From Candidatus Parcubacteria bacterium (GTDB lineage: Bacteria > Patescibacteriota > Minisyncoccia > Phycocordibacterales > PALSA-1337): a stretch of 64,000 nt of DNA. The position numbers were made by a program, and so were the translations under genes. How positions within the stretch are numbered: the stretch's first letter is position 1; each line of letters starts with the position of its first letter. Positions 4,341 to 58,746 of this stretch are shown here, in pieces. The notes under the pieces are model-generated. The model was given only the letters and a program-made list of their open reading frames with translations, made no database searches and was not told where the DNA came from. The stretch covers positions 2,884 to 66,883 of the forward strand of contig JBDLTF010000005.1 of assembly GCA_039799225.1 (NCBI GenBank), read 5' to 3'.

Positions 4341-5270
4341 CTACATCCACTTCTTCTTCCTGAACATATACCAGATCGCTCCGCTCACGGCGAGCATGAA
4401 GAAGAGAATTCCATACCATCCGACACCGTGCTCGATGAGTGGCACATTGAGCGCAGGGATAGTGAAGAGTGCGGCGATGAATGTCGCAGGCTGGAATATG
4501 AACGCAACCAACGTGAGGCGCTTCATGATGTCATTCTGCTTGGTATTGAGAAGAGAATCATTGGTCTCACGGAGATCAGCGAGCAATTCGCGGGAATTGG
4601 AAATGAGTTCGCGGATGCGATTGAAGTCGTCGCGAATATCATGCATGTAGACGCTGAATTCTTTGCCGAAGACGGAAGACTCATCATGAGAGACCATGTC
4701 AGACCAAATCTCTTCATGCACACGAGCAGTCTGCTTGAAATCGATAAGCTCACGAGAGAGATCGGAGAGGGCCTCCACCATATGTCGCTCATCACCACCG
4801 AAGACGCGTGTCTCAGCGCTCACGAGAGCATCTTTGATATTCTCGAGGTCTTCGCACATACCCGCGTAGATACGCTTGACCATATAGTAGAAGAGGTGAC
4901 CCGCATGCTCGATCTTCTCCTCTTTGTTGAGGATGGAGTTGGTTTCAAAAACTTTGCCGAAATACTCGAGCTGTTCGATAGTATCGAAACGAGAGGTGAT
5001 GAGGAAATTCTTGCCAATAACGAAATCAATCTCACGATCCTCGATCTCATATCCGTCACCTTTCTTGGCACGAACACGAACAGGGAGGGTGAGTACAACG
5101 AGGATATATTCCTTATAAAAATCTATCTTCGCAAGAGTAGAAGACTCCATAAGCTCTTCGCCGACGAGTGGATGGAGTCCATAGCGCTTGACCAGGCCAG
5201 AGATTTCTTCAGTATCAGGATTGGAGACGTCGAGCCAGACGAGACCTTTCGAAGCGTGATGGGTAATCAT
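4341..5270 (-). CDS. CorA-family divalent cation transporter-like protein (non-canonical, lacks GMN)
   Basis: 309 aa with a soluble N-domain and two C-terminal TM helices ending FRKKKWM, as in CorA. The GMN selectivity motif is replaced by TIP (FTIPALN). Confidence 0.55.
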   Translation of the reverse strand: MITHHASKGLVWLDVSNPDTEEISGLVKRYGLHPLVGEELMESSTLAKIDFYKEYILVVLTLPVRVRAKKGDGYEIEDREIDFVIGKNFLITSRFDTIEQLEYFGKVFETNSILNKEEKIEHAGHLFYYMVKRIYAGMCEDLENIKDALVSAETRVFGGDERHMVEALSDLSRELIDFKQTARVHEEIWSDMVSHDESSVFGKEFSVYMHDIRDDFNRIRELISNSRELLADLRETNDSLLNTKQNDIMKRLTLVAFIFQPATFIAALFTIPALNVPLIEHGVGWYGILFFMLAVSGAIWYMFRKKKWM

Positions 5271-10177: not shown

Positions 10178-11563
10178 CTATCCGAGTTTCTTAAGAGCAC
10201 TGTCGACTCTCTTAATAGCCTCTTCCCTGCCGAGCACCGCTGCGGAAATGAAAGGGTCTGGGGATTTATCTTGTCCGGTGAGTGACATGCGGAGTGGCCA
10301 GAGGACATCGCCTTTACCATTGGCTTCTACGTACGGCCAGAGTGCATTTTTGACAGTGTCAGCGGTAAATTCCTTGGTGGAAATTCCTGAAAGAATCTCT
10401 GAAACTTTGGTGAGATGAGCAGAAGCGGCCTTTGCATCAGGATTTTTCTTCCAGAGAAGTGTATCTGTCGCATACTCCTTGATCATGTGTACAAACGCAA
10501 GCTCACCATCGGCTGCAAGCATAGTGGAGACTTCTGCGAATGTAGTGATCTTGTCGCGCAAAATAGGTACAAGTCTCTTGAATGTATCACTCTTAGGTAC
10601 GACCCATTCTGGCAAGAATGGAATAGTGTACTCAATAAAATCAGCATCGGAAAGTTTCAAAACATACTGACGATTGAACCACTTGAGTTTCTCACCATCG
10701 AAGACTGCGCCTGACTTCTGCACGCGATCAAGAGAGAACTCCTTCACGATTTCGTCTACTGACAATACTTCCCTGTCGTCTGACGGATGCCAACCGAGGA
10801 GTGAAAGATAGTTGACGATGGCTTCGCGGATAAATCCCTTGTCGCGATATTCACTGATAGGAACGGCACCCTTCCTCTTGGAAAGCTTTGATTTATCGGC
10901 AGAAAGAAGGAGTGGAATATGCGCATAGTGAGGTATAGGAGCGCCTATAGCCTCAAATATGAGAATCTGGCGCGGAGTATTGGAGATATGATCCTCACCA
11001 CGAATGATGTGAGTGATACCCATCTCGTGATCGTCGATGACCACAACGAGATGGAACACAGGCTCGTCTTCACTCTTGGCGATGACGAAGTCACCGAGCT
11101 CAGTGGTATCAAACTCGATGCGTCCGCGAATGATATCATCGAAGACAACTTTCTTGTTGGGATTCTTGAAACGGATAACGCTCGAGCGGAGCTGACTAGG
11201 TTCTATCTGTCTGCCCTCCTTGGCGGCATTTTTGATAGTCTCTTGATTCTTGGCAGTCTCGTCGGAAACGTAGGCGTGACCAGATGCAATCATCTGGTGA
11301 ATATATGTCTTGTACATCTCGGTACGATCAGACTGACGATAAAATTCATCATATTCAAGACCGAGCCACTTCAAACTCTCGACGATGTTTTCCTCATATT
11401 CCTTCTTGGAGCGCTCCTTGTCAGTATCTTCAATACGGAGGATGAATTTACCCTTGTTCTGGCGCGCATATATCCACGAAAAAAGCGCCGTACGGTATGA
11501 TCCAGCATGGAAATAGCCTGTCGGCGACGGGGCAAAGCGGGTTACTACTTTTTGGGTAGACAT
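10178..11563 (-). CDS. gltX: glutamyl-tRNA synthetase
   Basis: VVTRFAPSPTGYFHAG (HIGH-type) and KLSKRKG (KMSKS). Confidence 0.9.
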   Translation of the reverse strand: MSTQKVVTRFAPSPTGYFHAGSYRTALFSWIYARQNKGKFILRIEDTDKERSKKEYEENIVESLKWLGLEYDEFYRQSDRTEMYKTYIHQMIASGHAYVSDETAKNQETIKNAAKEGRQIEPSQLRSSVIRFKNPNKKVVFDDIIRGRIEFDTTELGDFVIAKSEDEPVFHLVVVIDDHEMGITHIIRGEDHISNTPRQILIFEAIGAPIPHYAHIPLLLSADKSKLSKRKGAVPISEYRDKGFIREAIVNYLSLLGWHPSDDREVLSVDEIVKEFSLDRVQKSGAVFDGEKLKWFNRQYVLKLSDADFIEYTIPFLPEWVVPKSDTFKRLVPILRDKITTFAEVSTMLAADGELAFVHMIKEYATDTLLWKKNPDAKAASAHLTKVSEILSGISTKEFTADTVKNALWPYVEANGKGDVLWPLRMSLTGQDKSPDPFISAAVLGREEAIKRVDSALKKLG

Positions 11564-11758
11564 GAGGGTAGTATAGCAGAAATCAGCGGTTTATAAACAC
11601 AAAAGCCCCCGAAAGGGCTCTTGTATTGTCTGTTGTGCGGATCACCAGTAAAAGTGACTCGCGAGCCCAGAATGGATTACCCATTCCAGTCCACCAGTCG
11701 AGATTTAATCGACATAGAAAGTCTATCAACTTGTCAGAGCACCGTCAAATAAGTTCAC

Positions 11759-11826
11759 TGGACTCAAGGGGAATCGAACCCCTAAATCTATTTTGACAAG
11801 AATAGATTCGGAGCCATCCTGAGCCC
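11759..11826 (-). tRNA. tRNA-like element (perfect T-arm + acceptor; anticodon/D region non-canonical), possibly an unusual tRNA or a tRNA-derived fragment
   Basis: Minus-strand GGGCTCA...AGGGGTTCGATTCCCCTTGAGTCCA. Acceptor 7/7 paired with one G-U. Canonical T-loop TTCGATT. The middle folds as an 8-bp stem with an 8-nt loop (AATCTATT CTTGTCAA AATAGATT), not a standard anticodon arm. Total length is only 68 nt. Confidence 0.3.
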
Positions 11827-11848
11827 TCCGCGGAATTACTTCCGCGCT

Positions 11849-11900
11849 AAAATCATACACAATCAAAATGAAGGAATTGTGATGAAGTGATAGAGAAACT
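11849..11900 (-). promoter_or_regulatory. conserved upstream motif, copy 2 (minus strand GTTTCTCTATCACTTCATCACAATTCCTTCATT followed by TTGATTGTGTATGAT)
   Basis: Sits just upstream, in the sense orientation, of the tRNA-like element and the gltX leader. 23/27 identical to copy 1 over the core. Confidence 0.5.
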
Positions 11901-11908
11901 ATGATGAT

Positions 11909-12883
11909 CTATTTGATCACCGAATTCTTGACCGTCCCATGCTCGAGAAAATCAATTACATTCTGCGCAACCACCTTCGCCATCTCGTTACGGGCAGACT
12001 CACGTGCAGAGGCTATATGAGGCGTTAGGATGACATTAGGGAGCTTGGCGAGGCCACGGGCAAGCTTGGGTTCAAATTCGAAAACATCGAGGCCAGCGCC
12101 CGCAATAGTGCCGTCTTGTAGAGCTTTGACTAGAGCATTTTCATCAACAACAGGACCACGAGCGGTATTAATCAAGAATGCCGTCTGCTTCATCATCTTA
12201 AGACGAAGTTCATTCATGAGATGATGAGTCGAATCGAGAAGAGGTACGTGGAGACTCACAACATCAGACTGAACAAGAACTTCCTCAATCGTCTCACAGC
12301 GACGTGCGTGGTAATCATGATCGAGTGTCTCATTACGATTTACATCATAATAGAAAATTTCCATATCGAAGCCGTGATAACAATGATGCGCAACCCTCTC
12401 CCCTATTCTGCCTGCGCCAATGAGGCCAAGCTTCTTACCCTTGAGATCAGTACCGACCAGATTCATCGGTGACCAGCCTTTGTATTTACCAGCGCGGGTG
12501 AAGCGATCTGCTTCGACCATACGAGTAGTGAGTCCGAGCATAAGTGCGAGTGTATGCTCAGCAATAGTGTGCGCATAATTCCCCGGAGCATTAGCCGCCT
12601 GAATACCGCGCTTCTTTGCTTCTACAGTATCGATATTGTCAAACCCAGTTGCATAGTTCGCGTAGAATTTAACGCTTGGCACTGCTTCAAACAAAGTTGC
12701 ATCAACCTTGTCGGTCAATAATGAGATAACTGCATCATACGGCTTCTTCTGAAGTGCTTTGATGATTTCTCGCTGACTTGGAACACAATCATGAGGATAT
12801 ACATCAACATCGTATCCTCTCTTCTTGAGCATTTCGATAGCAATATCTGGAATGACGCGTGTGATATAGACTGATTTGGACAT
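11909..12883 (-). CDS. D-isomer-specific 2-hydroxyacid dehydrogenase (glycerate/hydroxypyruvate reductase family)
   Basis: NAD-binding GLIGAGRIGERVA. Catalytic-domain architecture typical of this family. 324 aa. Confidence 0.8.
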   Translation of the reverse strand: MSKSVYITRVIPDIAIEMLKKRGYDVDVYPHDCVPSQREIIKALQKKPYDAVISLLTDKVDATLFEAVPSVKFYANYATGFDNIDTVEAKKRGIQAANAPGNYAHTIAEHTLALMLGLTTRMVEADRFTRAGKYKGWSPMNLVGTDLKGKKLGLIGAGRIGERVAHHCYHGFDMEIFYYDVNRNETLDHDYHARRCETIEEVLVQSDVVSLHVPLLDSTHHLMNELRLKMMKQTAFLINTARGPVVDENALVKALQDGTIAGAGLDVFEFEPKLARGLAKLPNVILTPHIASARESARNEMAKVVAQNVIDFLEHGTVKNSVIK

Positions 12884-12996
12884 ATTACTAGTGATTATAC
12901 TACCAAAATGACATTTATGAATTTAGTTGAAATTATAATGCTATTTTAGCACGATTTTCTATTTACTCTTGAAAGCTAATCAATAATAAAAAATAT

Positions 12997-13899
12997 TTAA
13001 GAACCATTTAATTCTATTATTGCATTTAACTCACTAATAAAGTCATAAATAAGATCATTTGAAATAATTACGCCCAGACTTTCATAATCATCACCACTTA
13101 CCATAGATGGTATACCGATCCTGCAACCATACTGGTCAACCGCCAAACCTCCGGAATTACCGTGACTAATTTTTGCGGAAGTTATTATTAAACCATCTTT
13201 TGCTAATAAACTACTTACAATTCCATCAGTTATAGTAAGTGCATATCCACCACTGATTGCTGGATATCCGTAGATTCTCACAGGCTCACCGAGCTTCACA
13301 TTCTCATTCCTACAGTATTTATTACTATCATAAGCCGGGAAATTCTTAGGATAAACTCCGTATGTCTTACCTTCATCCATATCATAATAAACATCATCTA
13401 TCTGTACAAAAGCGAGGTCGTATTGTTCACTCAAATCAGGGATTACAATTGGATATGCGGTGTATATTTCATCAGGTGCACCACTAGAAGGATCGGGTAG
13501 TATAACAAGGCAACTTGAAGTATCTTCTGCCCCTTTAGGAATTATATGAGCATTAGTTAGAACAAGTCCGTCCTCCGTCAAAATAGTACCTGAGCCGCCA
13601 GAGGTATCTTCTTCTTTTTCTCCAGTACAGTAAATATTCACAACTGCTGATGCTATATCTAGGTTTGTTTGATCACTTGCGGGTTTTATTCTCTTACTAT
13701 TATAAAAAAATACTAGTCCAACAATTACAATCAACAAAAAGATACCGCACGCAACAACTACTCTACTTTTAGTAAAATATTTTTTTGTTTTATTGAGAGC
13801 TTGAGTCTGATCTTCTCGAAGTATTTGTACCTCTGCACCGCATGACGTGCAAAATTTTATATTTTCTTTTATTTCATTCCCACATGATGTACAAAACAT
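12997..13899 (-). CDS. double-zinc-ribbon / TM / trypsin-like serine protease (S1-like) protein
   Basis: N-terminal FCTSCGN...FCTSCGA. One TM. His (TNAHI), Asp (DLAFVQID) and Ser (GNSGG) catalytic triad motifs. Confidence 0.7.
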   Translation of the reverse strand: MFCTSCGNEIKENIKFCTSCGAEVQILREDQTQALNKTKKYFTKSRVVVACGIFLLIVIVGLVFFYNSKRIKPASDQTNLDIASAVVNIYCTGEKEEDTSGGSGTILTEDGLVLTNAHIIPKGAEDTSSCLVILPDPSSGAPDEIYTAYPIVIPDLSEQYDLAFVQIDDVYYDMDEGKTYGVYPKNFPAYDSNKYCRNENVKLGEPVRIYGYPAISGGYALTITDGIVSSLLAKDGLIITSAKISHGNSGGLAVDQYGCRIGIPSMVSGDDYESLGVIISNDLIYDFISELNAIIELNGS

Positions 13900-13904
13900 A
13901 AAAA

Positions 13905-14372
13905 TTACTTAGCTGCGACAGAAATGCCGCAATTACCACAGAATTTTAGCTCTTTTATGGCTTGCGTACCACAACTTGAGCAATAACTTATCCGAATATC
14001 TTTATCCTTGGGAAAAAATTCAGTCTCAACAACTTCAGATTTAACTGCATCCTGTGAACCACTACTAAGTAAACTTATTCGGATATGATATTCTTCGTTA
14101 GTGATTTTGCCATCTACTAGGAGCTGATTTGTTTCTGCAAGAGGCTCCATTTGAGTAAACTGATCTCCATTCAATGTTACGCCGTATTTACAGACCGGAC
14201 AAGACAAGTAATGCTCTATTTTGTAAGGAAAAACTGGAATAAAAAATAAAGTAAACCAGGTCTTTATTTTGGTCAAAACCCAGTAGTGCTCGTTGTGGCA
14301 GTGGCTGCAAAGTTTTTTGAAAACTGGACCAAAGTTTTTAATTGTTTGAAAGCCCCAGCCAAAAATAATCAT
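13905..14372 (-). CDS. zinc-ribbon-containing small protein
   Basis: CSHCHNEH...CPVCKYG and C-terminal YCSSCG...FCGNCG. One hydrophobic segment. Confidence 0.5.
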   Translation of the reverse strand: MIIFGWGFQTIKNFGPVFKKLCSHCHNEHYWVLTKIKTWFTLFFIPVFPYKIEHYLSCPVCKYGVTLNGDQFTQMEPLAETNQLLVDGKITNEEYHIRISLLSSGSQDAVKSEVVETEFFPKDKDIRISYCSSCGTQAIKELKFCGNCGISVAAK

Positions 14373-14377
14373 GATTT

Positions 14378-15274
14378 TTAATTTTCAGCTAAATAATCAT
14401 AAACTTCCTGTGGCACCTCTACCCCATTCGCAATCGCTTTTCGTAAATAAATTTGAGCATTTATAGGATCATCATTTCTTGCATATGACAATCCAAGCCA
14501 ATAAGCAATGTATGTATCCGCATCAAGAGTTATGCTGGAAAATATTGAGATGGCTTGAGGATAATTTTCATTGAAATAGTAAGCCATACCGAGGTTTTGC
14601 TTGGCAATCTGCAAATCAGTCAATTGGACTGCACGTTGAGCATATTTCAATGCTTTCGGGTAATCAACATACTGAGGAGCATTATCTTCTAAGTCCATGT
14701 AAAAAAGTGCGAGCGAGTTATTAATTTGAAAATCATTAGGATCTTTTGAATAAGCCTTATTAAAGGCAAGCAAAGCTGCATTTGGCTTACTCTCAAGCAT
14801 TGCTATTTCTCCCGCAATCAAATAGTAATCGAAAGAATCACTCAGTGCTATTATAAGAGCTTCTTTGAAGGTGCTGATTGCCAAATCATTTTGTCCCTCA
14901 CCTGAATAGACGTAGGCAAGATTTTTAAGAGTGTTTACCTTATTTTCATTTGAGACCGCATCATGTGATGCTTGCTGGAGTTGATTTAAAGCTTGCTGAC
15001 TATTTCCAGAGTCATAGTTTGAAACTGCACTATTATTTTTCTCTATAACAGCATCATCCATAGATGCATATACAATCCATCCAACGATAGCAACAATAAA
15101 AAGCAGTTTAAATACCCTACCTATATTTCTCGATGCCTTAAATTTTGTTTTTCTAAAATTTGGGATACTTTGTTTTTGAGATAAACTGGTTTTAACTCCT
15201 AAAAGTTCTTTACCACAATTAGTACAGAACTTATTCAAACTATCTGATTTTGTGCCACAATTTTCGCAAAACAT
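14378..15274 (-). CDS. double-zinc-ribbon / TM / TPR-repeat protein
   Basis: N-terminal FCENCG...FCTNCG. One TM (FKLLFIVAIVGWIVYASM). TPR-like repeats in the C-terminal half. Confidence 0.65.
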   Translation of the reverse strand: MFCENCGTKSDSLNKFCTNCGKELLGVKTSLSQKQSIPNFRKTKFKASRNIGRVFKLLFIVAIVGWIVYASMDDAVIEKNNSAVSNYDSGNSQQALNQLQQASHDAVSNENKVNTLKNLAYVYSGEGQNDLAISTFKEALIIALSDSFDYYLIAGEIAMLESKPNAALLAFNKAYSKDPNDFQINNSLALFYMDLEDNAPQYVDYPKALKYAQRAVQLTDLQIAKQNLGMAYYFNENYPQAISIFSSITLDADTYIAYWLGLSYARNDDPINAQIYLRKAIANGVEVPQEVYDYLAEN

Positions 15275-15283
15275 ATTTGTATT

Positions 15284-15769
15284 TTATTTTAGGACGTTAT
15301 CAGGTAACTTATTCAGCTCAAATAAACTAATGATAACTGAAATAAAAAGTGCAATCTCTCCAAGACTTGATATGATTTCGACCTTCTGAAAAGCTATAAC
15401 AATGATAGTAAGTACTAAAATTATAGTGGCTATCCTGTGATCTGCCTTTGCTAACCTAATAAGCCCCCATATTCCGAATACAATGATCATTAGACCACCT
15501 ATGAATCCTACTGTACCTAGAAATACCTCGGACACATCACCAGCAAATGGTAAAAAGAGAAGACATATCGTTACTATCCACGGCCAAACAATCAACTTAC
15601 AGAGCAATTTATTTGATATTTTTCTGTTGGGTATCTTTATCTTCTCGTTAGATATTGCTGTATTAGCGATTTTATGACTTGAACTGTTTCCTATGGCCTT
15701 TCCACACCTAGCACAAAACATTGCACTATTTTTTATTTCATTTCCACATTCCCTGCAAAATTTGTTCAT
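15284..15769 (-). CDS. double-zinc-ribbon N-terminal multi-pass membrane protein
   Basis: N-terminal FCRECG...FCARCG followed by 3-4 predicted TM helices. Confidence 0.55.
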   Translation of the reverse strand: MNKFCRECGNEIKNSAMFCARCGKAIGNSSSHKIANTAISNEKIKIPNRKISNKLLCKLIVWPWIVTICLLFLPFAGDVSEVFLGTVGFIGGLMIIVFGIWGLIRLAKADHRIATIILVLTIIVIAFQKVEIISSLGEIALFISVIISLFELNKLPDNVLK

Positions 15770-15803
15770 AAATTATTTATAAATAATAGACACTTTATTT
15801 GAG

Positions 15804-15846
15804 GTATTTGACTTAAACATAATAATACAATAACTAAGTCAAATAC
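15804..15846. promoter_or_regulatory. perfect 12-bp inverted repeat GTATTTGACTTA-N19-TAAGTCAAATAC (candidate operator) upstream of the zinc-ribbon gene
   Basis: Exact palindrome arms 35-75 nt upstream of the start at 15769. Contains a TTGACT -35-like hexamer. Confidence 0.4.
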
Positions 15847-15977
15847 ACTATAATCCAGACTTTGGGTAATGGTGGATAATTAAATTTATTAATAAACCAT
15901 CATAGCTCGTCAAAAACTGCCCTAAGACCAAAAGAGCCGCCTTGCGGCGACTCTTCTGGTCGAACAAATCTGAAATA

Positions 15978-16481
15978 CTATCCCTTGATGCCGGCACCGA
16001 CTGCAGCTGCAGCACGGAAGAGCTTCATGATGATGTTGCCCTTGGAATCCTTGATTGGAAGATCCTTAGAAGCATCAAACTTCATGTCACCATCATCTGA
16101 GTGGAGCATAGCGTAATAGATACCTCCTTCAACAGTCGGCTTGGTGAGAGTGATCTTGCCTGTGTTGATACCCTTTGCGAAGTACATTGTTCCGATAACA
16201 TCTCCTGGCTGACCATTCTTGTCAGCGTGGATAGCAACGAATCCGCCATTGGCGAGCTGGACTGATGAAAGGAATACAACGTTACCAGGATACTGGTCGG
16301 ACATAACAACACGGTTGATCTCGGTGGCTGCACCTCCGCTGGTATCACCCAAGGCGGTAGTGTCCATCGTGTCAGATCCCTTGTTTCCGAAGACCATGAT
16401 ACCGATGACGATAAGGGCGATGATGACGATAGCTGTGACGATCCACTGCCATGCCTTGATGCCGCTCTGTTCTGGATTCAT
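15978..16481 (-). CDS. hypothetical membrane-anchored protein
   Basis: N-terminal TM (WQWIVTAIVIIALIVIGIMVF) and a roughly 130-aa extracytoplasmic domain. No family recognised. Confidence 0.5.
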   Translation of the reverse strand: MNPEQSGIKAWQWIVTAIVIIALIVIGIMVFGNKGSDTMDTTALGDTSGGAATEINRVVMSDQYPGNVVFLSSVQLANGGFVAIHADKNGQPGDVIGTMYFAKGINTGKITLTKPTVEGGIYYAMLHSDDGDMKFDASKDLPIKDSKGNIIMKLFRAAAAVGAGIKG

Positions 16482-16601: not shown

Positions 16602-17735
16602 TTATTTCTCGTGTTGTAGCGCGATATCCAAAATTACATCAGCGATAACTTGAGCGCTGTCGAGACGAGCGAATGCCTTGGCCTGGCGCTTCATAGTCTC
16701 CTTGATATTCTCTGAGCCATAGATGCGGTCTATTTCCCCTATAACGATATGGGCACTCAAATTGTTCTCTTCAACGACCGAAGCTGCACCGGTGCGACCG
16801 TAAGCAAATGCATTGGCAGTCTGATCATGACTCACCGATGTAGGTAGAGGAATAATGATCGACGGGACACCCCAAGATGCTATCTCGAATATCGTAGATC
16901 CTGCGCGCGATACGATAACATCAGCGACGCCAGCTGACATACGCAGAGCAAGCTCATTGAGATAGTCGAATGGATGGTAGCGTGAAGCGTATGGATGATC
17001 CTTGAGAAATACTGAGGTTGTTTGTTTGATTTCCTCAAGATTGGCCCTGCCGGTCTGGTGAATAACCTGATATTTATTGAGAAGTTCAGGAAGACCTTGA
17101 ATGATAGCGTCATTGATAGCTGCAGCTCCCTGAGATCCACCAAGAACGAGAACGACTGGTGTATTCTGCTCCAACTGAAGGAATTCATGCGCGCCATTGG
17201 AAAGTGGCTGCGCTATATCGCTCCTGATAGGACATCCAGTGAGTGCCACCACGCCCGGCTTCTTGGTGAAGTATTCTGCAGCCTCAGGGTATGAGATAGC
17301 AATTTTCTTCGCGAACTTCCCCGCCCATGCGTTAACGCGACCCGGCTTACTGTCTGATTCATGAATGATGACGGGAATCTTAAGCAGCTTTGCGGCGAAC
17401 AGTGTCGGGAAGCTTGCATAACCACCCTTACCGAAAACAACATCTGGATAGATACGGAAAAGGCTACTGACAGCTGATATACAACCGAAGAATGTCTTGA
17501 ATAAGTCGGTAAAATTGAGGAGTGAGAAGTAGCGTCGCATCTTACCTGCAGAGACGCTCACATACTCGAGCTCATTATCGAAAAGGGCGCGTGCATTGTA
17601 CTTACTCGGCGCCATATAGTAGAGCTGAGGAGCAATAATCTTGCGCTCATTCATGCGAGTGCGCAATGCTTGGACGACGGCAATAATCGGATAGAAATGA
17701 CCTCCTGTGCCTCCTCCCGTAAATAAGATTTTCAT
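16602..17735 (-). CDS. murG: undecaprenyldiphospho-muramoylpentapeptide beta-N-acetylglucosaminyltransferase
   Basis: MKILFTGGGTGGHFYPIIAV N-terminus. GT28 architecture. 377 aa. Confidence 0.9.
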   Translation of the reverse strand: MKILFTGGGTGGHFYPIIAVVQALRTRMNERKIIAPQLYYMAPSKYNARALFDNELEYVSVSAGKMRRYFSLLNFTDLFKTFFGCISAVSSLFRIYPDVVFGKGGYASFPTLFAAKLLKIPVIIHESDSKPGRVNAWAGKFAKKIAISYPEAAEYFTKKPGVVALTGCPIRSDIAQPLSNGAHEFLQLEQNTPVVLVLGGSQGAAAINDAIIQGLPELLNKYQVIHQTGRANLEEIKQTTSVFLKDHPYASRYHPFDYLNELALRMSAGVADVIVSRAGSTIFEIASWGVPSIIIPLPTSVSHDQTANAFAYGRTGAASVVEENNLSAHIVIGEIDRIYGSENIKETMKRQAKAFARLDSAQVIADVILDIALQHEK

Positions 17736-17781: not shown

Positions 17782-18447
17782 TTATCCTAATGTCCATTGA
17801 ATACTAGTAACTTCAAATATATCCCTTTTCAGCTCGCCAATCATTTTGAAAGTATATCTCTGATACTGACTATTTGTTATAACTTTTATAAATTCAGCGA
17901 AAGTATCGTTTTGGTAGCGAGTATTTTGTACGACTGTCGGCATCTTAACTTTCATCGTTTCCATACCTGTTGTCAGCATAAATGTACGAGCATCTATATC
18001 TATACTCTTGATGTCTTTGACAACAACACCAATTTCCTGAATTCCAACCTTATCAGCGCACCACACATAAGGAAGATCAGATGATACTGAATTTGGCCCA
18101 ATTATCATACAAAGGAGATGCCAATTCTCATATGCGTACTCTACACGGTCACCGAAACGAGAAGGTTGAGTCACTTCTCCTATAGTAGCCAATATACGAT
18201 TGGCGACGATTTTCTGCGCAGATGACACCGGAAGCTTGTACCCTGGAATATTTTTGAAACCAGGCTGTGCTTCTATTTTGTAATCAGAATTTGCCTCCTG
18301 TTGAAGATTTTCCAAAATTGATTTTGCTTGTGGACCAGCTGATGATCTTTCATTCTTACTATAAAGATATACACCACCACCTACTACGAGCACTGCAATT
18401 ATTGCTAAAAGAAGTGGTGTAACAAAACCTTTTTGTGGATTTTTCAT
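17782..18447 (-). CDS. hypothetical secreted/membrane-anchored protein (AT-rich gene inserted between ftsW and murG)
   Basis: N-terminal TM/signal (FVTPLLLAIIAVLVVGGGVYLY). About 35% GC against about 50% in the flanking genes. Confidence 0.5.
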   Translation of the reverse strand: MKNPQKGFVTPLLLAIIAVLVVGGGVYLYSKNERSSAGPQAKSILENLQQEANSDYKIEAQPGFKNIPGYKLPVSSAQKIVANRILATIGEVTQPSRFGDRVEYAYENWHLLCMIIGPNSVSSDLPYVWCADKVGIQEIGVVVKDIKSIDIDARTFMLTTGMETMKVKMPTVVQNTRYQNDTFAEFIKVITNSQYQRYTFKMIGELKRDIFEVTSIQWTLG

Positions 18448-19560: not shown

Positions 19561-20142
19561 TTACGGTTGAGGTTGGGAATCTGGAGTAGCCACAGGTTCC
19601 TGATGTGCCTTGAATCCTTCGATATCTTTCCTTACTTGTTCATATTCCGGCAATTCTTCAATTTTTGGAATTCCAAGATGTGACAAGAGTTGCAGAGTGG
19701 TCTTGTAGAGAAAACTACGAGCATCTTGTGGATTCTCTACACGCTCAACGAGTCCACGAATGAGTAGGTTACGCACGATGAACTGAGAATTGACCCCGCG
19801 GATGTAATCGATATCCGCACGAGAGATGGGACCTTGATACAAAATAATAGAAAGAGTCTCAAGTCCTGCTTTGCCAAGATCTCGCGTTAATTCTTCTTTG
19901 GTCAATTGTTCAATAAGAGGAGAAATTTCCTTGGCGGTGCCGAGCATAACTTCTTCGTTAGTACGCACAAGGGTCAAACCCCTTCCCTTCAGGGCGTTTT
20001 CCAATTCCTGCAAGCCAGCGTTGATAGCGTCAGTGCCCACATCGAGCAATGTGCACAATTTCTTGATAGAAACGGGTTCAGCTTTCCAGAAAAGGATGGC
20101 TTCAAGTTGAGCAGATAGATTCATATGATGAAATAATATCAT
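19561..20142 (-). CDS. scpB: segregation and condensation protein B
   Basis: LEAILFWKAEPVSIKKL winged-helix ScpB signature. Adjacent to scpA. Confidence 0.85.
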   Translation of the reverse strand: MILFHHMNLSAQLEAILFWKAEPVSIKKLCTLLDVGTDAINAGLQELENALKGRGLTLVRTNEEVMLGTAKEISPLIEQLTKEELTRDLGKAGLETLSIILYQGPISRADIDYIRGVNSQFIVRNLLIRGLVERVENPQDARSFLYKTTLQLLSHLGIPKIEELPEYEQVRKDIEGFKAHQEPVATPDSQPQP

Positions 20143-20864
20143 TAATACCTCGGCACCCCAACATTCTTGGTCTCCATATGAATATCGTCGAACTGCCTTT
20201 CTTGGGTAACGTGCAAGACGCCTTCCTTGACCAGCTCGAGCATCGCCAGGAAGCTCACGATGACATTCACCTTCTCACCTTTATGCTCACCGGTAAATTG
20301 TTTGAAACTCATACGCAGACTACTCGTAATACGATTGGTAAGTGTACCGATCATATCTTCGAGACTGACGACCTTCTGGACCACATGCTTTGGCAGACTC
20401 TCCTTCTTGGGTAGACGATTAATCAAATCTTTGAGCGAGTACAGCGCCTTCTCCAACGTGAATTCTGGCGCAGGGGCGAACACTGGCTGAACCGGTCGTG
20501 TCGCGGATTGTGAGAATATCATTTCAGCGCCAAAGAGTTTGCTGACATGGACACTCGCATCCTTTATGCGTTTAAATATTTTGAGGCGCGTCTCAAGGTC
20601 TTGAATGTCTCCTTTCTCTTCTTCAGTGAGGCTCAATTCAGGCAGAAGTGACTTGGACTTGATGAGAAGAAGCGTCGAAGCAACGAGAATGAAGTGTGCA
20701 GACTCCCCCATTGGCATCTGCTCGAATGAACGGACATGAGCGATGAAGTCATCGGTAACCTTGGCGAGTGAGATGTCACTAATGAAAAGCTTTCTCTTCT
20801 CAATAAGGTCAAGTAGGAGATCGAGAGGACCTTCGAATGACTGAGTTTTGACGGTAAATGCCAT
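20142..20864 (-). CDS. scpA: segregation and condensation protein A
   Basis: FEGPLDLLLDLIEKRKLFISDISLAKVTD is a canonical ScpA N-terminus. Confidence 0.85.
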   Translation of the reverse strand: MAFTVKTQSFEGPLDLLLDLIEKRKLFISDISLAKVTDDFIAHVRSFEQMPMGESAHFILVASTLLLIKSKSLLPELSLTEEEKGDIQDLETRLKIFKRIKDASVHVSKLFGAEMIFSQSATRPVQPVFAPAPEFTLEKALYSLKDLINRLPKKESLPKHVVQKVVSLEDMIGTLTNRITSSLRMSFKQFTGEHKGEKVNVIVSFLAMLELVKEGVLHVTQERQFDDIHMETKNVGVPRY

Positions 20865-57265: not shown

Positions 57266-57271
57266 TATGTG

Positions 57272-57344
57272 TGGACCCGAGAGGAATTGAACCTCCGACC
57301 TTTGCTTTGCAAAAGCACTGCTCTACCAACTGAGCTACGGGCCC
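57272..57344 (-). tRNA. tRNA-Ala (anticodon UGC) with G3:U70 identity pair
   Basis: GGGCCCG TA GCTC AGTTGGTA GAGC A GTGCT TTTGCAA AGCAA AGGTC GGAGG TTCAATT CCTCT CGGGTCC A. Confidence 0.85.
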
Positions 57345-57753: not shown

Positions 57754-58746
57754 CTACAACTTCCTCCCTTTGAGTGCCAAAGCAATGAGATGATCTATGA
57801 GTTCATGTGTATCACTTCCCACTGCGCGTAGAGATTTTGGCATAAGAGATTCATCAGTGAGTCCGGGAAGTGTATTCACTTCGAGCACATAGATACCGCG
57901 ACGGGGATGGATAATGAAGTCCGACCTGGAATAGTGCCTCAGACCAAGCGCACGATGCACTTTGCCTGCCAATTCTTCGAGAGACTTCTTGATAGACTCT
58001 GCGAACGTAGCGGGAACTATTTCATGTGACTTACCTTGATACTTCGCTTCGAAGTCGAAGAAGCCATTGTGTGGACGAATCTCAACTGGCGGAAGTGCGT
58101 ACAGATCATGGTCACGGAATCCTTCGATAACTCCGCAGGTCGCTTCAATTCCGGGAATGAATTCCTCGATGAGCACGATATCACCATGAGCCGCGGCAGC
58201 GAGAAGTGCTGGCGATAGACCTGCGAAGTCACGGACCACAGAAACACCCACTGATGAACCGCTCGAAACCGGCTTGATAACCGCCGGTAAGATGAAGGTT
58301 GTGAATAATTCACGCGCTATAGCATCTGAATCTTCAATGACGCGGCTCGAAGGGACTTCTTTCCAGTACGGACTCTTAATACCGTGTGCCGCGAATGATT
58401 TCTTGGAGAGAATTTTGTTCATACCAACTGCAGAGCCGAGTGCATCAGAGCCAGTGAATGGAATTCCGTGAGCAGCGAGGATGGCCTGTACCTTCCCATC
58501 TTCTCCATATGATCCATGGAGCGCATTGAATGCGACATCTATCTTGGAATGGAGATTTTCTGGATCTACTGCAAGACCATCGATATGCCAGTTACCCTGA
58601 CGATCAATAAAAATATCCTTGGGATGATACTTATGCTCGAAATGTTTACGGAGTGCAGCGAGAACATTGCCACCGGAATTGAGGGAGACGTCATATTCAT
58701 TGCTCGGACCTCCGCGGAGCACGCCGACACGGATGAGATGCTTCAT
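57754..58746 (-). CDS. ddl: D-alanine--D-alanine ligase
   Basis: ATP-grasp fold. N-terminus RVGVLRGGPSNEYDVSLNSG. 330 aa. Confidence 0.9.
   Translation of the reverse strand: MKHLIRVGVLRGGPSNEYDVSLNSGGNVLAALRKHFEHKYHPKDIFIDRQGNWHIDGLAVDPENLHSKIDVAFNALHGSYGEDGKVQAILAAHGIPFTGSDALGSAVGMNKILSKKSFAAHGIKSPYWKEVPSSRVIEDSDAIARELFTTFILPAVIKPVSSGSSVGVSVVRDFAGLSPALLAAAAHGDIVLIEEFIPGIEATCGVIEGFRDHDLYALPPVEIRPHNGFFDFEAKYQGKSHEIVPATFAESIKKSLEELAGKVHRALGLRHYSRSDFIIHPRRGIYVLEVNTLPGLTDESLMPKSLRAVGSDTHELIDHLIALALKGRKL

What the first reader, a model, noticed from the sequence alone, without database searches (positions are those of the whole stretch)
11565..11908. tRNA-like element with a perfect T-arm/acceptor but a non-canonical middle, sitting in a 345-nt leader with an intrinsic terminator just upstream of gltX
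On the minus strand, GGGCTCA...AGGGGTTCGATTCCCCTTGAGTCCA gives a 7-bp acceptor with one G-U pair and a canonical T-stem-loop. The intervening 36 nt fold as an 8-bp stem with an 8-nt loop (CTTGTCAA, containing TCA and GTC). They do not form a normal D-arm plus 7-nt anticodon loop. Total length is only 68 nt. Upstream lies copy 2 of the conserved promoter-like motif, then a tight hairpin (CGCGGAAgtaaTTCCGCG). Downstream lies GAGCCCTTTCGGGGGCTTTTGTGTTT, a terminator-like hairpin plus U-tract about 45 nt before the gltX ATG. Possible explanations: an unusual or 8-nt-anticodon-loop tRNA, a tRNA remnant marking an old integration site, or a structured leader regulating gltX.
Basis: seen in the sequence. 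Interest (0 to 1): 0.55.

Follow-up and report, generated by a model that had tools for sequence, protein, structure and literature searches.

The report
Alanine tRNA mimic with antisense partner
The odd tRNA-like sequence is real, but it does not control gltX: it is one of two adjacent small-RNA genes found in ultra-small (CPR) bacteria, an alanine-type tRNA mimic and a co-evolving RNA that base-pairs with it. I could find no earlier description of this pair.

Summary
Window 11826-11759 (minus strand) is a 68-nt tRNA-like RNA with a 7-bp acceptor stem carrying G3·U70 and A73, a 3-bp mini D-hairpin (UGGC loop), an 8-bp stem with loop CUUGUCAA, and a canonical T-arm. ARAGORN does not call it. 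Rfam tRNA scores 24.5 bits, below the cut-off of 29.

The gltX-leader reading fails. gltX has its own leaderless promoter (TGCTATACT, 6 nt before ATG), which relatives lacking the element also keep.

The 345-nt spacer holds two transcription units: P1 with a leader hairpin and the tRNA mimic, then P2 (TTGACG-17-TAGACT) with a ~115-nt "RNA2" ending at the terminator.

A pattern scan found the same 68-nt architecture in about 14 distinct metagenomic versions. G3·U70 and the UCCA end are invariant there. Each has a promoter- and terminator-bearing RNA2 that is antisense to nt 1-36 of its own tRNA mimic (z = -5 to -10). Gene order can flip.

In the window's lineage, RNA2 also carries UGGUGGACU, which complements the mimic's 3' end plus the non-encoded CCA (9 bp, P≈0.003).

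The best reading is a self-contained RNA-RNA module in which RNA2 binds and opens an alanine-identity tRNA mimic. Its physiological role is unknown. I found no Rfam family or paper describing it.

The parts
11852..11860 (-). Putative promoter P1 of the tRNA-like gene (TG-n-ATGATT / TATGAT -10 region; weak -35)
   Evidence: Read from the sequence and conserved in L001 and L145. The consensus scan did not pick it up. Main-type homologues have clear TATAAT/TATACT boxes about 11 nt before G1. Inferred, not shown.
11829..11846 (-). 5' leader hairpin CGCGGAA-GUAA-UUCCGCG, 2 nt before G1 of the tRNA-like RNA
   Evidence: The structure is kept in L001 (UGCGGAA/UUCCGUG, via G·U) and L145 (UGGAAG/CUUCCA). 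It is presumably the leader removed by RNase P (inference).
11759..11826 (-). 68-nt tRNA-like RNA: acceptor 7 bp with G3·U70, discriminator A73, 3-bp D-hairpin with UGGC loop, 8-bp stem with loop CUUGUCAA, canonical T-arm; no encoded CCA
   Evidence: Family model R1 scores it 71.6 bits. Compensatory changes appear in all four helices against L001, L145 and the metagenomic members.
11720..11748 (-). Promoter P2 of RNA2: TTGACG, 17-nt spacer, TG-extended TAGACT
   Evidence: Found by the consensus scan. The equivalent TTGACA-N16-18-TAnnnT is present in every family member examined. Conserved in L001 (TTGACT-16-TAAACT) and L145 (TTGACA-16-TATCAT).
11697..11713 (-). RNA2 5' hairpin GUCGA-UUAAAUC-UCGAC
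   Evidence: Conserved in L001. L145 has GUCAGC/GUUGAC with changed pairs.
11688..11696 (-). RNA2 box UGGUGGACU, complementary to the tRNA-like 3' end AGUCCA plus the post-transcriptional CCA
   Evidence: 9 consecutive pairs counted from A76; shuffle P = 0.003. UGGUGGA is invariant in the three window-type versions, and the extension covaries partly (L145: 11 bp; L001: 7 bp). It is predicted unpaired in RNA2 alone.
11663..11691 (-). RNA2 segment antisense to the tRNA-like 5' half: GAC-U-GGAAUGGGU-AAU-CCAUUCUGGGCUC pairs with nt 20-32 and nt 1-13 (6 G·U)
   Evidence: Duplex energy is -34.2 kcal/mol, against -24 for non-cognate partners and z = -4.0 against shuffles. It is homologous in layout to the 36-nt antisense block of main-type RNA2. 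The block is absent in L145.
11637..11662 (-). RNA2 internal hairpin GCG-AGUCAC-UUUUAC-UGGUGAU-CCGC
   Evidence: Predicted in the folds. Not conserved in L145. Role unknown.
11626..11630 (-). Second anti-loop GACAA, pairing with loop UUGUC, just 5' of the terminator
   Evidence: At the homologous position L145 has CUGAUAG (loop CUAUCAG) and L001 has GGUAA (loop UUACC). Three loop positions covary. Suggestive only, since there are just three sequences.
11595..11627 (-). Intrinsic terminator of RNA2: AAUACAAGAGCCCU-UUCG-GGGGCUUUUGUGUUU
   Evidence: hairpin detected. Nearly invariant in L001 and L145. Every family RNA2 ends in a comparable GC hairpin with a U-tract.
11570..11597 (-). gltX promoter (TTTATA, 16-nt spacer, TG-extended TATACT) 6 nt before the ATG at 11563; not part of the cassette but marks its boundary
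   Evidence: Conserved in relatives with and without the cassette. The same TGCTATAAT-6/9 nt-ATG layout occurs at many genes of the window.

Best explanation
The 345-nt spacer is not a gltX leader. It holds an autonomous two-gene RNA cassette.

Gene 1 (P1, leader hairpin, nt 11826-11759) makes a 68-nt non-decoding tRNA mimic. It keeps the parts of a tRNA that the processing and charging machinery reads: the acceptor/T-arm minihelix, the elbow (T-loop plus D-loop GG), and the alanine identity set (G3·U70, A73). Its anticodon arm is replaced by a long hairpin.

Gene 2 (P2, to the terminator at 11595) makes RNA2. RNA2's only conserved property is base complementarity to its own neighbour. Across the family it pairs with the hairpin loop and the whole 5' half (nt 1-36). 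In the window's lineage it also pairs with the 3' acceptor strand including the CCA tail.

Proposed mechanism (inferred): the mimic is matured by RNase P and the CCA-adding enzyme and can be alanylated. RNA2 nucleates on the exposed loop (and, in the window type, on the free CCA end). It then invades the acceptor stem and converts the mimic into an extended heteroduplex. That heteroduplex can no longer act as a tRNA-like substrate and is probably degraded.

Shown here: the structures, their conservation and covariation, the cognate-specific complementarity, the promoter and terminator signatures, and independence from gltX.

Inferred: transcription, processing, charging, and the direction of control (RNA2 acting on the mimic rather than the reverse).

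Unknown: what the alanine mimic does. Candidates are an antisense-gated non-ribosomal Ala donor, or an RNA-only addiction or decoy module.
For: Element real and tRNA-like but non-canonical:
-.
- Family model built without the window scores it 71.6 bits, L001 55.2 and L145 52.6.

Family conservation:
- 18 of 18 aligned members have G1-C72, G2-C71, G3·U70 and the UCCA end, although the search pattern fixed only GGGC, TGGC and the T-arm.
- Covariation exceeds all 500 shuffles and all slid controls.

Cognate RNA2 complementarity to nt 1-36:
- -46 to -58 kcal/mol, against about -28 to -35 for non-cognate pairs.
- z = -5 to -10 against shuffles.
- 17 of 17 perfect matches in L104 and L130 despite different sequences.
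- The heterodimer is favoured by -16 to -29 kcal/mol in the main type and by -11 to -13 in the window type.

Orientation and RNA level:
- G·U exceeds A·C among non-Watson-Crick positions, 34 to 14, P = 0.003.
- A canonical TTGACA-N16-18-TAnnnT lies before every RNA2 and a terminator after it.

Two separate units:
- RNA2 lies upstream of the mimic in L122, L110 and L082.

Window-type CCA-end box:
- 9, 11 and 7 consecutive pairs from A76 (P = 0.003, 0.001, 0.01), against 2-4 in the main type.
- The CCA is not encoded; the genomic trailers are GUG or UGA.

Not a gltX leader:
-.

Spread:
- The window is Taylorbacteria-like and L130 is Yanofskybacteria-like. Both are Paceibacteria (CPR).
Against: - There are no expression, processing or aminoacylation data. 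Promoters and terminators are consensus matches only.
- The family was retrieved with a pattern derived from the window and L001, so part of the similarity is by construction and the true spread is unknown.
- The taxonomy of most metagenomic loci was not checked.
- The window-type complementarity to the 5' half is weaker (-34 kcal/mol, many G·U) and is missing in L145, so what RNA2 must pair with is not uniform.
- The window type rests on only three distinct versions.
- The UGGUGGAC box matches the genuine tRNA-Ala(UGC) 3' end of the window equally well (9 bp with one wobble), so the mimic may not be its only partner.
- No conserved protein neighbour points to a function.
- In some loci the cassette lies inside an ORF on the other strand, which could mean that selfish mobility, not cellular function, explains its persistence.
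Confidence: 0.6

Rival explanations
1. It is a functional but unusual decoding tRNA, for example one with an 8-nt anticodon loop reading four-base codons, or a suppressor that inserts alanine.
For: If the loop is read as 8 nt, a U33-like U and an A37-like purine flank four bases (CU-UGUC-AA). The acceptor, T-arm and D-loop GG are intact. One family member, L082, is close enough to a cloverleaf that ARAGORN calls it tRNA-Gly(ACC).
Against: The 'anticodon' differs among near relatives and across the family (UGUC, UAUC, UACC, UGAC, UGCC, UUCC) while the Ala identity is fixed. That combination would mistranslate many different codons. The D-arm is cut to 3 bp with a 4-nt loop and the stem is 8-9 bp. 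ARAGORN and Rfam reject it. The loop covaries with RNA2. A normal tRNA-Ala(UGC) exists in the same window.
Confidence: 0.05
2. RNA2 with its terminator is a T-box-like attenuator of gltX. The neighbouring tRNA mimic, or tRNA-Ala, acts as the ligand, sensed through loop and CCA-end pairing.
For: RNA2 of the window type pairs with both an anticodon-like loop and the NCCA end (UGGU...), which are the two contacts that define T-box recognition. It ends in an intrinsic terminator directly upstream of an aminoacyl-tRNA synthetase gene.
Against: The gltX promoter lies downstream of the terminator, gives a leaderless mRNA, and is conserved without the cassette. No antiterminator alternative was found, and the anti-loop does not overlap the GC core of the terminator. 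There is no T-box hit in Rfam even at E ≤ 10. The order of the contacts is reversed relative to T-boxes. Main-type cassettes have no CCA box and sit next to unrelated genes in either orientation. The identity is Ala, not Glu.
Confidence: 0.07
3. It is a minimal tmRNA-like RNA (tRNA-like domain only) that takes alanine to stalled ribosomes or to ribosome quality control (RqcH-type Ala tailing). RNA2 would be an accessory.
For: G3·U70, A73, a reduced D region and no anticodon are the hallmarks of the tmRNA tRNA-like domain. For the L119 member the best Rfam match is tmRNA, with ends only, at 30.6 bits. TLD-only tmRNAs are known in mitochondria (PMC11915505).
Against: No tag ORF could be found in either RNA (inspection of the sequences). 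The score is below the Rfam cut-off. L125 carries a standard tmRNA with a tag 5 kb from its cassette. Nothing explains why a rescue RNA would need a full-length antisense partner.
Confidence: 0.1
4. It is a decaying tRNA-Ala pseudogene or integration scar, and the downstream complementarity is a by-product of an inverted duplication.
For: The acceptor stem is close to that of tRNA-Ala. The cassette is present or absent among close relatives at a variable site. An inverted repeat is the simplest DNA-level description.
Against: Helices are maintained by compensatory changes over GltX divergence down to 84% within the window lineage, and far beyond that between lineages. G3·U70 is invariant. Both units keep consensus promoters and terminators. 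Mismatches are biased towards G·U in one orientation. The CCA-complementary box cannot arise from duplication of genomic sequence.
Confidence: 0.05
5. It is chiefly a small selfish or mobile element (MITE or Rickettsia-palindromic-element-like, or an RNA-only addiction module). Its RNA features serve its own maintenance, not a host function.
For: The genomic location varies and the cassette is present or absent between relatives. In two lineages it sits inside long ORFs without breaking the frame. It needs no protein, and pairs a presumably stable structured RNA with an antisense, which matches toxin/antitoxin logic.
Against: Only one copy was seen in each contig examined. No terminal repeats or target duplications were established; there is only a loose similarity between 11898-11886 and the gltX promoter. 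No transposase is associated. Sequences differ strongly between genomes, unlike recent MITE bursts.
Confidence: 0.13

Closest known systems
tRNA-like domain of tmRNA (including TLD-only mitochondrial tmRNAs)
   Same: Acceptor stem with G3·U70 and A73 (alanine identity), a canonical T-arm, a reduced D region, no anticodon, and a helix in place of the anticodon arm. Weak Rfam similarity (tmRNA 30.6 bits on L119).
   Different: It is a closed 68-nt molecule with a hairpin and has no mRNA-like domain, pseudoknots or tag. It coexists with a standard tmRNA (L125). It also has a dedicated antisense partner gene.
tRNA-Ala(UGC)
   Same: A near-identical acceptor stem (window tRNA-Ala GGGCCCG/CGGGUCC-A), a loop starting CUUG, T-loop and D-loop GG.
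   Different: The D-arm is 3 bp with a 4-nt loop. The stem is 8-9 bp and the loop is CUUGNCA(N), variable in the middle. It fails ARAGORN and the Rfam gathering score.
T-box riboswitch
   Same: It works like one in a single respect: an RNA that reads a tRNA-shaped partner by pairing with its anticodon-position loop and with the free NCCA end through UGGN, and that ends in an intrinsic terminator (window type).
   Different: It is encoded in trans beside a dedicated ligand gene. It has no Stem I, specifier-loop architecture or T-box consensus, no antiterminator and no regulated downstream gene. The pairing runs 7-11 nt into the acceptor stem. The feature is absent from the main-type cassettes.
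Antisense RNA control pairs (ColE1 RNA I/RNA II, CopA/CopT, hok/sok-type type I systems)
   Same: A constitutive small RNA, fully complementary to a structured target, that is likely to start at an exposed loop (often YUNR-like CUUG) and then propagate. The module is self-contained and location-independent.
   Different: The two genes are on the same strand and do not overlap; the complementarity comes from an inverted repeat. The target is a tRNA mimic, not an mRNA or a primer. No toxin ORF is present. The only Rfam RNAI hit is insignificant (24 bits, E 0.5).
Other tRNA-like non-coding RNAs (bacterial YrlA Y RNA, mascRNA/menRNA)
   Same: They mimic the tRNA elbow and acceptor and are presumably matured by tRNA enzymes. 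Weak Rfam mascRNA similarity (26.9 bits).
   Different: YrlA has a permuted topology and is linked to Rsr; no such gene is seen here. mascRNA is eukaryotic. None of these has an alanine identity set plus an antisense partner.

Membership tests
tRNA (RF00005) | Detected by tRNA finders or covariance model at threshold | tested here: not met
   ARAGORN makes no call. Rfam scores 24.5 bits against a gathering score of 29. 17 family loci were likewise not called, except L082.
tRNA (RF00005) | Cloverleaf with a 4-bp D-stem and 7-11-nt loop, and a 5-bp anticodon stem with a 7-nt loop (U33, purine 37) | tested here: not met
   The D-hairpin is 3 bp with a 4-nt loop. The stem is 8 bp with an 8-nt loop, and position 37 is C if the loop is read as 7 nt.
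tRNA (RF00005) | 7-bp acceptor plus discriminator and a canonical T-arm | tested here: met
   Pairs covary.
tRNA (RF00005) | Anticodon conserved among orthologues and consistent with the acceptor identity | tested here: not met
   The loop differs in the window, L145 and L001 and across the family, while G3·U70 is fixed.
tmRNA (RF00023 / permuted RF04321) | Alanine identity (G3·U70, A73) in a tRNA-like domain lacking an anticodon | tested here: met
tmRNA (RF00023 / permuted RF04321) | mRNA-like domain with resume codon, tag ORF and pseudoknots between the acceptor strands | tested here: not met
   The acceptor strands are 53 nt apart and closed by a hairpin. No conserved ORF was found in either RNA. 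Rfam gives 12.9 bits (permuted model, window) and 30.6 bits (L119), against a cut-off of 47.
tmRNA (RF00023 / permuted RF04321) | It is the genome's trans-translation RNA | tested here: not met
   L125 has a standard tmRNA (128 bits, tag VKNLFNTPVPAFALA) in addition to the cassette. This is not testable for the window's own genome.
T-box riboswitch (RF00230) | UGGN bulge pairing with the tRNA 3' NCCA | tested here: met
   Window type only. UGGUGGACU pairs with AGUCCA+CCA (9 bp, P = 0.003). Main type: not met (2-4 bp).
T-box riboswitch (RF00230) | Stem I with specifier loop and distal platform; conserved T-box sequence | tested here: not met
   No T-box hit at E ≤ 10. The folds show only simple hairpins.
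T-box riboswitch (RF00230) | Mutually exclusive antiterminator and terminator controlling the downstream gene | tested here: not met
   No antiterminator pairing was found. gltX has its own promoter after the terminator, conserved without the cassette.
Type I toxin-antitoxin / cis-antisense pairs | Antisense RNA with extended complementarity to its partner | tested here: met
Type I toxin-antitoxin / cis-antisense pairs | Target encodes a small toxic peptide; the genes overlap on opposite strands | tested here: not met
   There is no ORF in the 68-nt RNA. The genes are on the same strand and do not overlap.
tRNA-mimic + RNA2 cassette (family defined here) | A ~68-nt tRNA-like RNA with G3·U70/A73, a mini D-hairpin, a long stem-loop and a T-arm | tested here: met
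   R1 scores it 71.6 bits.
tRNA-mimic + RNA2 cassette (family defined here) | An adjacent same-strand RNA2 with its own promoter and terminator, complementary to the mimic's loop and 5' half | tested here: met
   P2 lies at 11748-11720. Complementarity has z = -4.0, weaker than in the main type.
tRNA-mimic + RNA2 cassette (family defined here) | Both RNAs expressed; the mimic processed, CCA-tailed and alanylated | not testable with these tools
   Supported only indirectly, by the RNA2 box that complements the non-encoded CCA.

The most novel reading that the evidence does not exclude
CPR (Paceibacteria) genomes carry a protein-free, self-contained two-RNA system: a chargeable alanine tRNA mimic and a co-evolving partner RNA. 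The partner reads or neutralises the mimic through its anticodon-position loop, its 5' half and, in one lineage, its free CCA end. That would make it a trans-acting analogue of T-box recognition fused with antisense control. It could work as an RNA-only toxin/antitoxin-like or charging-state switch, and it may be mobile.
Probability: 0.3. Interest if true: 0.9.

Novelty: categorically new. Interest (0 to 1): 0.8.

Why it matters
If this is real, it adds a new class of bacterial non-coding RNA system in the least understood major bacterial radiation. It would be a tRNA mimic that keeps only the alanine-charging half of a tRNA, plus a dedicated RNA that co-evolves with it. Three consequences follow.

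- It would be the first case I know of where an RNA encoded in trans recognises a tRNA-shaped partner through both the loop and the CCA end. Until now that logic belonged to cis-acting T-box leaders.
- It offers a testable RNA-only regulatory or addiction module in organisms with minimal genomes.
- It gives a handle on non-ribosomal uses of Ala-tRNA-like molecules.

Practically, the element is invisible to tRNA finders and Rfam, and its terminator can be mistaken for attenuators of neighbouring genes, as happened here. Covariance models for both RNAs would therefore improve annotation of CPR genomes.

Tried and rejected
- **Canonical tRNA or tmRNA.** ARAGORN and Rfam at gathering threshold found nothing at the element.
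- **Permissive Rfam search.** At E ≤ 10 on the spacer and on five family loci, only sub-threshold tRNA, tmRNA and mascRNA matches appeared. There was no T-box, and the RNAI hit was insignificant.
- **gltX attenuator.** Rejected on promoter position, synteny and the leaderless organisation of the genome.
- **Two-piece or split tmRNA.** Rejected: I found no ORF, and L125 has a standard tmRNA.
- **Conserved protein neighbour (smpB, Fem-type, RT, transposase).** None found. Contexts differ: permease/NrdD-like, HisS, surface proteins, gltX.
- **Phage origin.** One unrelated GC-rich hit in 2.9 million viral contigs.
- **The loop TTGACA as an internal -35 box.** No -10 lies at the right distance (inspection).
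- **RNA2 transcribed from the opposite strand.** Disfavoured by promoter orientation and by the G·U over A·C bias.
- **CCA-end box as a family-wide feature.** It is not; it is restricted to the window type.
- **Literature.** Seven full-text searches and one paper read found no description.
- **A single fixed register for the long stem across the family.** This failed because bulge positions differ (53% paired; RNAalifold). The stem was therefore left out of model R1.
Full report
**1. The observation**

The spacer 11564-11908 lies between a 2-hydroxyacid dehydrogenase gene (11909-12883) and gltX (10178-11563), both on the minus strand. At 11826-11759 (minus) there is a 68-nt sequence, GGGCUCAGGAUGGCUCCGAAUCUAUUCUUGUCAAAAUAGAUUUAGGGGUUCGAUUCCCCUUGAGUCCA. 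It folds as follows (-25.9 kcal/mol, z = -3.1):
- a 7-bp acceptor stem whose only wobble is G3·U70, followed by A73;
- a 3-bp hairpin with loop UGGC;
- an 8-bp stem with loop CUUGUCAA;
- a canonical T-arm.

ARAGORN finds three ordinary tRNAs in the window but not this element. Rfam reports nothing at gathering scores. In a permissive search the tRNA model reaches 24.5 bits against a cut-off of 29, with a shortened D region and an inserted loop base.

**2. It is not a gltX leader**

The consensus scan finds two sigma-70-type promoters inside the spacer on the gltX strand:
- TTGACG-17-TAGACT at 11748-11720;
- TTTATA-16-TATACT at 11597-11570, ending 6 nt before the gltX ATG and lying after the terminator.

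The window's genes mostly lack Shine-Dalgarno sequences (3 of 37). Many have TGCTATAAT 6-9 nt before the ATG, so leaderless mRNAs appear to be the rule.

GltX relatives place the organism in CPR/Patescibacteria (Paceibacteria, Taylorbacteria-like). Synteny is 2-Hacid_dh, spacer, gltX, Peptidase_M23.
- Relatives at 84-88% GltX identity (L001, L145-147, L152) have a 326-345-nt spacer containing the element.
- L151 (77%) has a 66-nt spacer.
- L149 (81%) has a 157-aa ORF instead.
- L153 and L154 have short spacers.

All of them keep the TGCTATA(C/A)T-ATG promoter. Of 80 GltX loci, only L001 had a T-arm upstream.

**3. The element is conserved as a structure**

The window, L145 and L001 differ at many positions. 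All the same, each keeps the acceptor (UCA/UGA, CUA/UAG, CAU/AUG; G3·U70 fixed), the mini D-hairpin (GGA/UCC, GAU/AUC, GAC/GUC), the long stem and the T-stem through compensatory changes. Their loops differ: CUUGUCAA, CCUAUCAG, CUUACCAG.

**4. A wider family**

A metagenome scan with GGGC-N6-TGGC-N20-36-GGGGTTCGAWTCCCC returned 63 loci. About 25 of these loci, representing 14 distinct sequences, share the 68-nt architecture and end in ...GUCCA.

In an 18-sequence alignment, G1-C72, G2-C71, G3·U70 and the UCCA end are invariant, although the pattern did not constrain the 3' strand. Covariation exceeds all 500 shuffles and all slid controls.

A covariance model built from 12 metagenomic members, without the window, scores the window element at 71.6 bits. 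The window's real tRNAs score 36-38 bits, L001 scores 55.2 and L145 scores 52.6. L145 starts GGGA and has a UGGU loop, so the family is broader than the search pattern.

ARAGORN calls none of 18 family loci as tRNA except L082, which it labels 'tRNA-Gly ACC' although it also has G3·U70. The HisS gene next to the L130 cassette is Yanofskybacteria-/Paceibacterota-like. The family therefore spans distinct Paceibacteria lineages.

**5. The partner RNA**

In every main-type locus the element is followed by TTGACA-N16-18-TAnnnT. After that promoter comes a 67-75-nt (109 nt in L130) unit ending in a strong terminator.

That unit, RNA2, is antisense to nt 1-36 of its own neighbour, covering the loop, the 5' arm of the stem, the D-hairpin and the 5' acceptor strand.
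- L104 and L130 have 17 of 17 perfect matches over completely different sequences.
- Cognate duplex energies are -46 to -58 kcal/mol, against about -28 to -35 for non-cognate pairs.
- z = -5 to -10 against dinucleotide shuffles.
- Cofolding favours the heterodimer by -16 to -29 kcal/mol.
- Non-Watson-Crick positions are G·U rather than A·C by 34 to 14 (P = 0.003). This argues for RNA-level pairing in the annotated orientation.

In L122, L110 and L082, RNA2 lies upstream of the mimic with its own promoter and terminator. The two are therefore separate transcription units that pair in trans.

There is no conserved protein neighbour. L125 carries a standard tmRNA 5 kb away.

**6. The window's version**

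RNA2 runs from about 11713 to 11595 and contains, in order:
- a 5' hairpin (11713-11697);
- the box UGGUGGACU (11696-11688);
- a block GAC-U-GGAAUGGGU-AAU-CCAUUCUGGGCUC (11691-11663) that pairs with nt 20-32 and nt 1-13 of the mimic (-34 kcal/mol against -24 non-cognate; z = -4.0);
- an internal hairpin;
- GACAA (11630-11626);
- the terminator.

The box is complementary to the mimic's 3' end only if the CCA tail is added. It gives 9 consecutive pairs in the window, 11 in L145 and 7 in L001 (shuffle P = 0.003, 0.001, 0.01). Main-type RNA2s give 2-4 pairs. The genomic trailers are GUG or UGA, not CCA.

The short element just before the terminator covaries with the loop: GACAA with UUGUC, CUGAUAG with CUAUCAG, and GGUAA with UUACC.

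Caveats:
- There are only three distinct window-type versions.
- L145 lacks the 5'-half antisense block.
- The box matches the window's genuine tRNA-Ala 3' end equally well.

**7. Interpretation**

Shown here:
- a conserved tRNA-shaped RNA gene with alanine identity elements and no stable anticodon;
- a co-evolving neighbour whose only conserved property is complementarity to it;
- promoter and terminator signatures for both;
- independence from gltX.

Inferred:
- The mimic is matured like a tRNA. The CCA-complementary box is indirect evidence for this.
- It can be alanylated.
- RNA2 binds it starting at the loop (and the CCA end), opens the acceptor stem and inactivates or destabilises it.

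The role of an alanine mimic remains open. Candidates are a non-ribosomal Ala donor, a decoy, or an RNA-only addiction module.

The rival readings are each contradicted by at least one test; see the rivals and membership tables. They are a decoding 8-nt-loop tRNA, a gltX T-box-like attenuator, a TLD-only tmRNA, a pseudogene or scar, and a purely selfish element.

**8. Novelty**

Neither RNA matches any of 4,227 Rfam families at threshold. Seven full-text literature searches and a reading of the 2025 tmRNA database paper found no description.

The components resemble known kinds: the tmRNA tRNA-like domain, T-box recognition logic, and antisense control. I could not place the two-RNA module in any known system.

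Limits:
- retrieval was biased by the search pattern;
- there are no expression data;
- only one metagenomic locus was checked for taxonomy.

Noticed in passing
window, many genes (e.g. 57754-58746, 17782-18447, 16602-17735, 20142-20864, 4341-5270, all minus strand): The genome looks largely leaderless. Only 3 of 37 long ORFs have a Shine-Dalgarno-like motif. At least 9 have an extended -10 (TGCTATAAT-like) 5-8 nt before the ATG.
   Followed up: partly
L083:953-6454 (+), L134:563-6082 (+), L135, L139 (to 4229, -), L142:2396-3715 (-): In two lineages the whole mimic+RNA2 cassette lies inside a long signal-peptide/LamG-type surface-protein ORF on the opposite strand, without interrupting the frame (the T-arm reads G-I-E-P-P). 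Homologues have a hypervariable linker of different length at that position. This recalls the in-frame palindromic elements of Rickettsia.
   Followed up: partly
L083 around 1050 and 1870; also in homologue P0122: A palindromic terminator-like hairpin (AAACCGACATCGGATGTCGGTTT, translating as KPTSDVG on either strand) occurs twice inside the same surface-protein ORF, once next to the cassette.
   Followed up: no
L084, L089, L095, L103, L106, L120, L128 (GC-rich soil contigs): A 66-nt D-arm-reduced tRNA-Ala(UGC)-like gene (loop CUUGCAU/CUUGCAA) sits inside dense arrays of further tRNA-like genes. This is a different kind of locus from the CPR cassette, picked up by the same pattern.
   Followed up: no
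L082:3138-3212: ARAGORN calls this family member tRNA-Gly(ACC). It nevertheless has G3·U70, an encoded CCA and an upstream RNA2 antisense to its 5' half. It may be a less reduced relative of the 68-nt mimics.
   Followed up: partly
L122, L110, L121, L137 (5' leaders): In a subgroup, the 5' leader contains UGGAG(CC), complementary to the 3' end GGCUCCA. In L122 this leader segment forms a better 7-bp acceptor than the annotated GGGCUGC start, so the mature 5' end may differ in this subgroup.
   Followed up: no
window 11898-11886 versus 11582-11570: TTTCTCTATCACT at the upstream edge of the spacer resembles the gltX promoter core TTTCTGCTATACT at its downstream edge. It is conserved in L001 and L145. 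It may be a duplicated promoter or target site flanking the inserted cassette.
   Followed up: no
L149:1372-1845 (and L148:1360-1845): In the relative with 81% GltX identity, the same dehydrogenase-gltX spacer holds a 157-161-aa ORF with no Pfam hit instead of the RNA cassette. The site seems to be a hotspot for insertions.
   Followed up: no
window 12001-16000: GC content drops to 0.37 here against 0.44-0.51 elsewhere in the window. The stretch lies immediately upstream of the dehydrogenase gene region.
   Followed up: no
window 11696-11688 versus tRNA-Ala at 57271-57344: The RNA2 box UGGUGGACU would also pair over 9 positions (one wobble) with the CCA-tailed 3' end of the genuine tRNA-Ala(UGC), because both share ...GUCCA.
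   Followed up: partly
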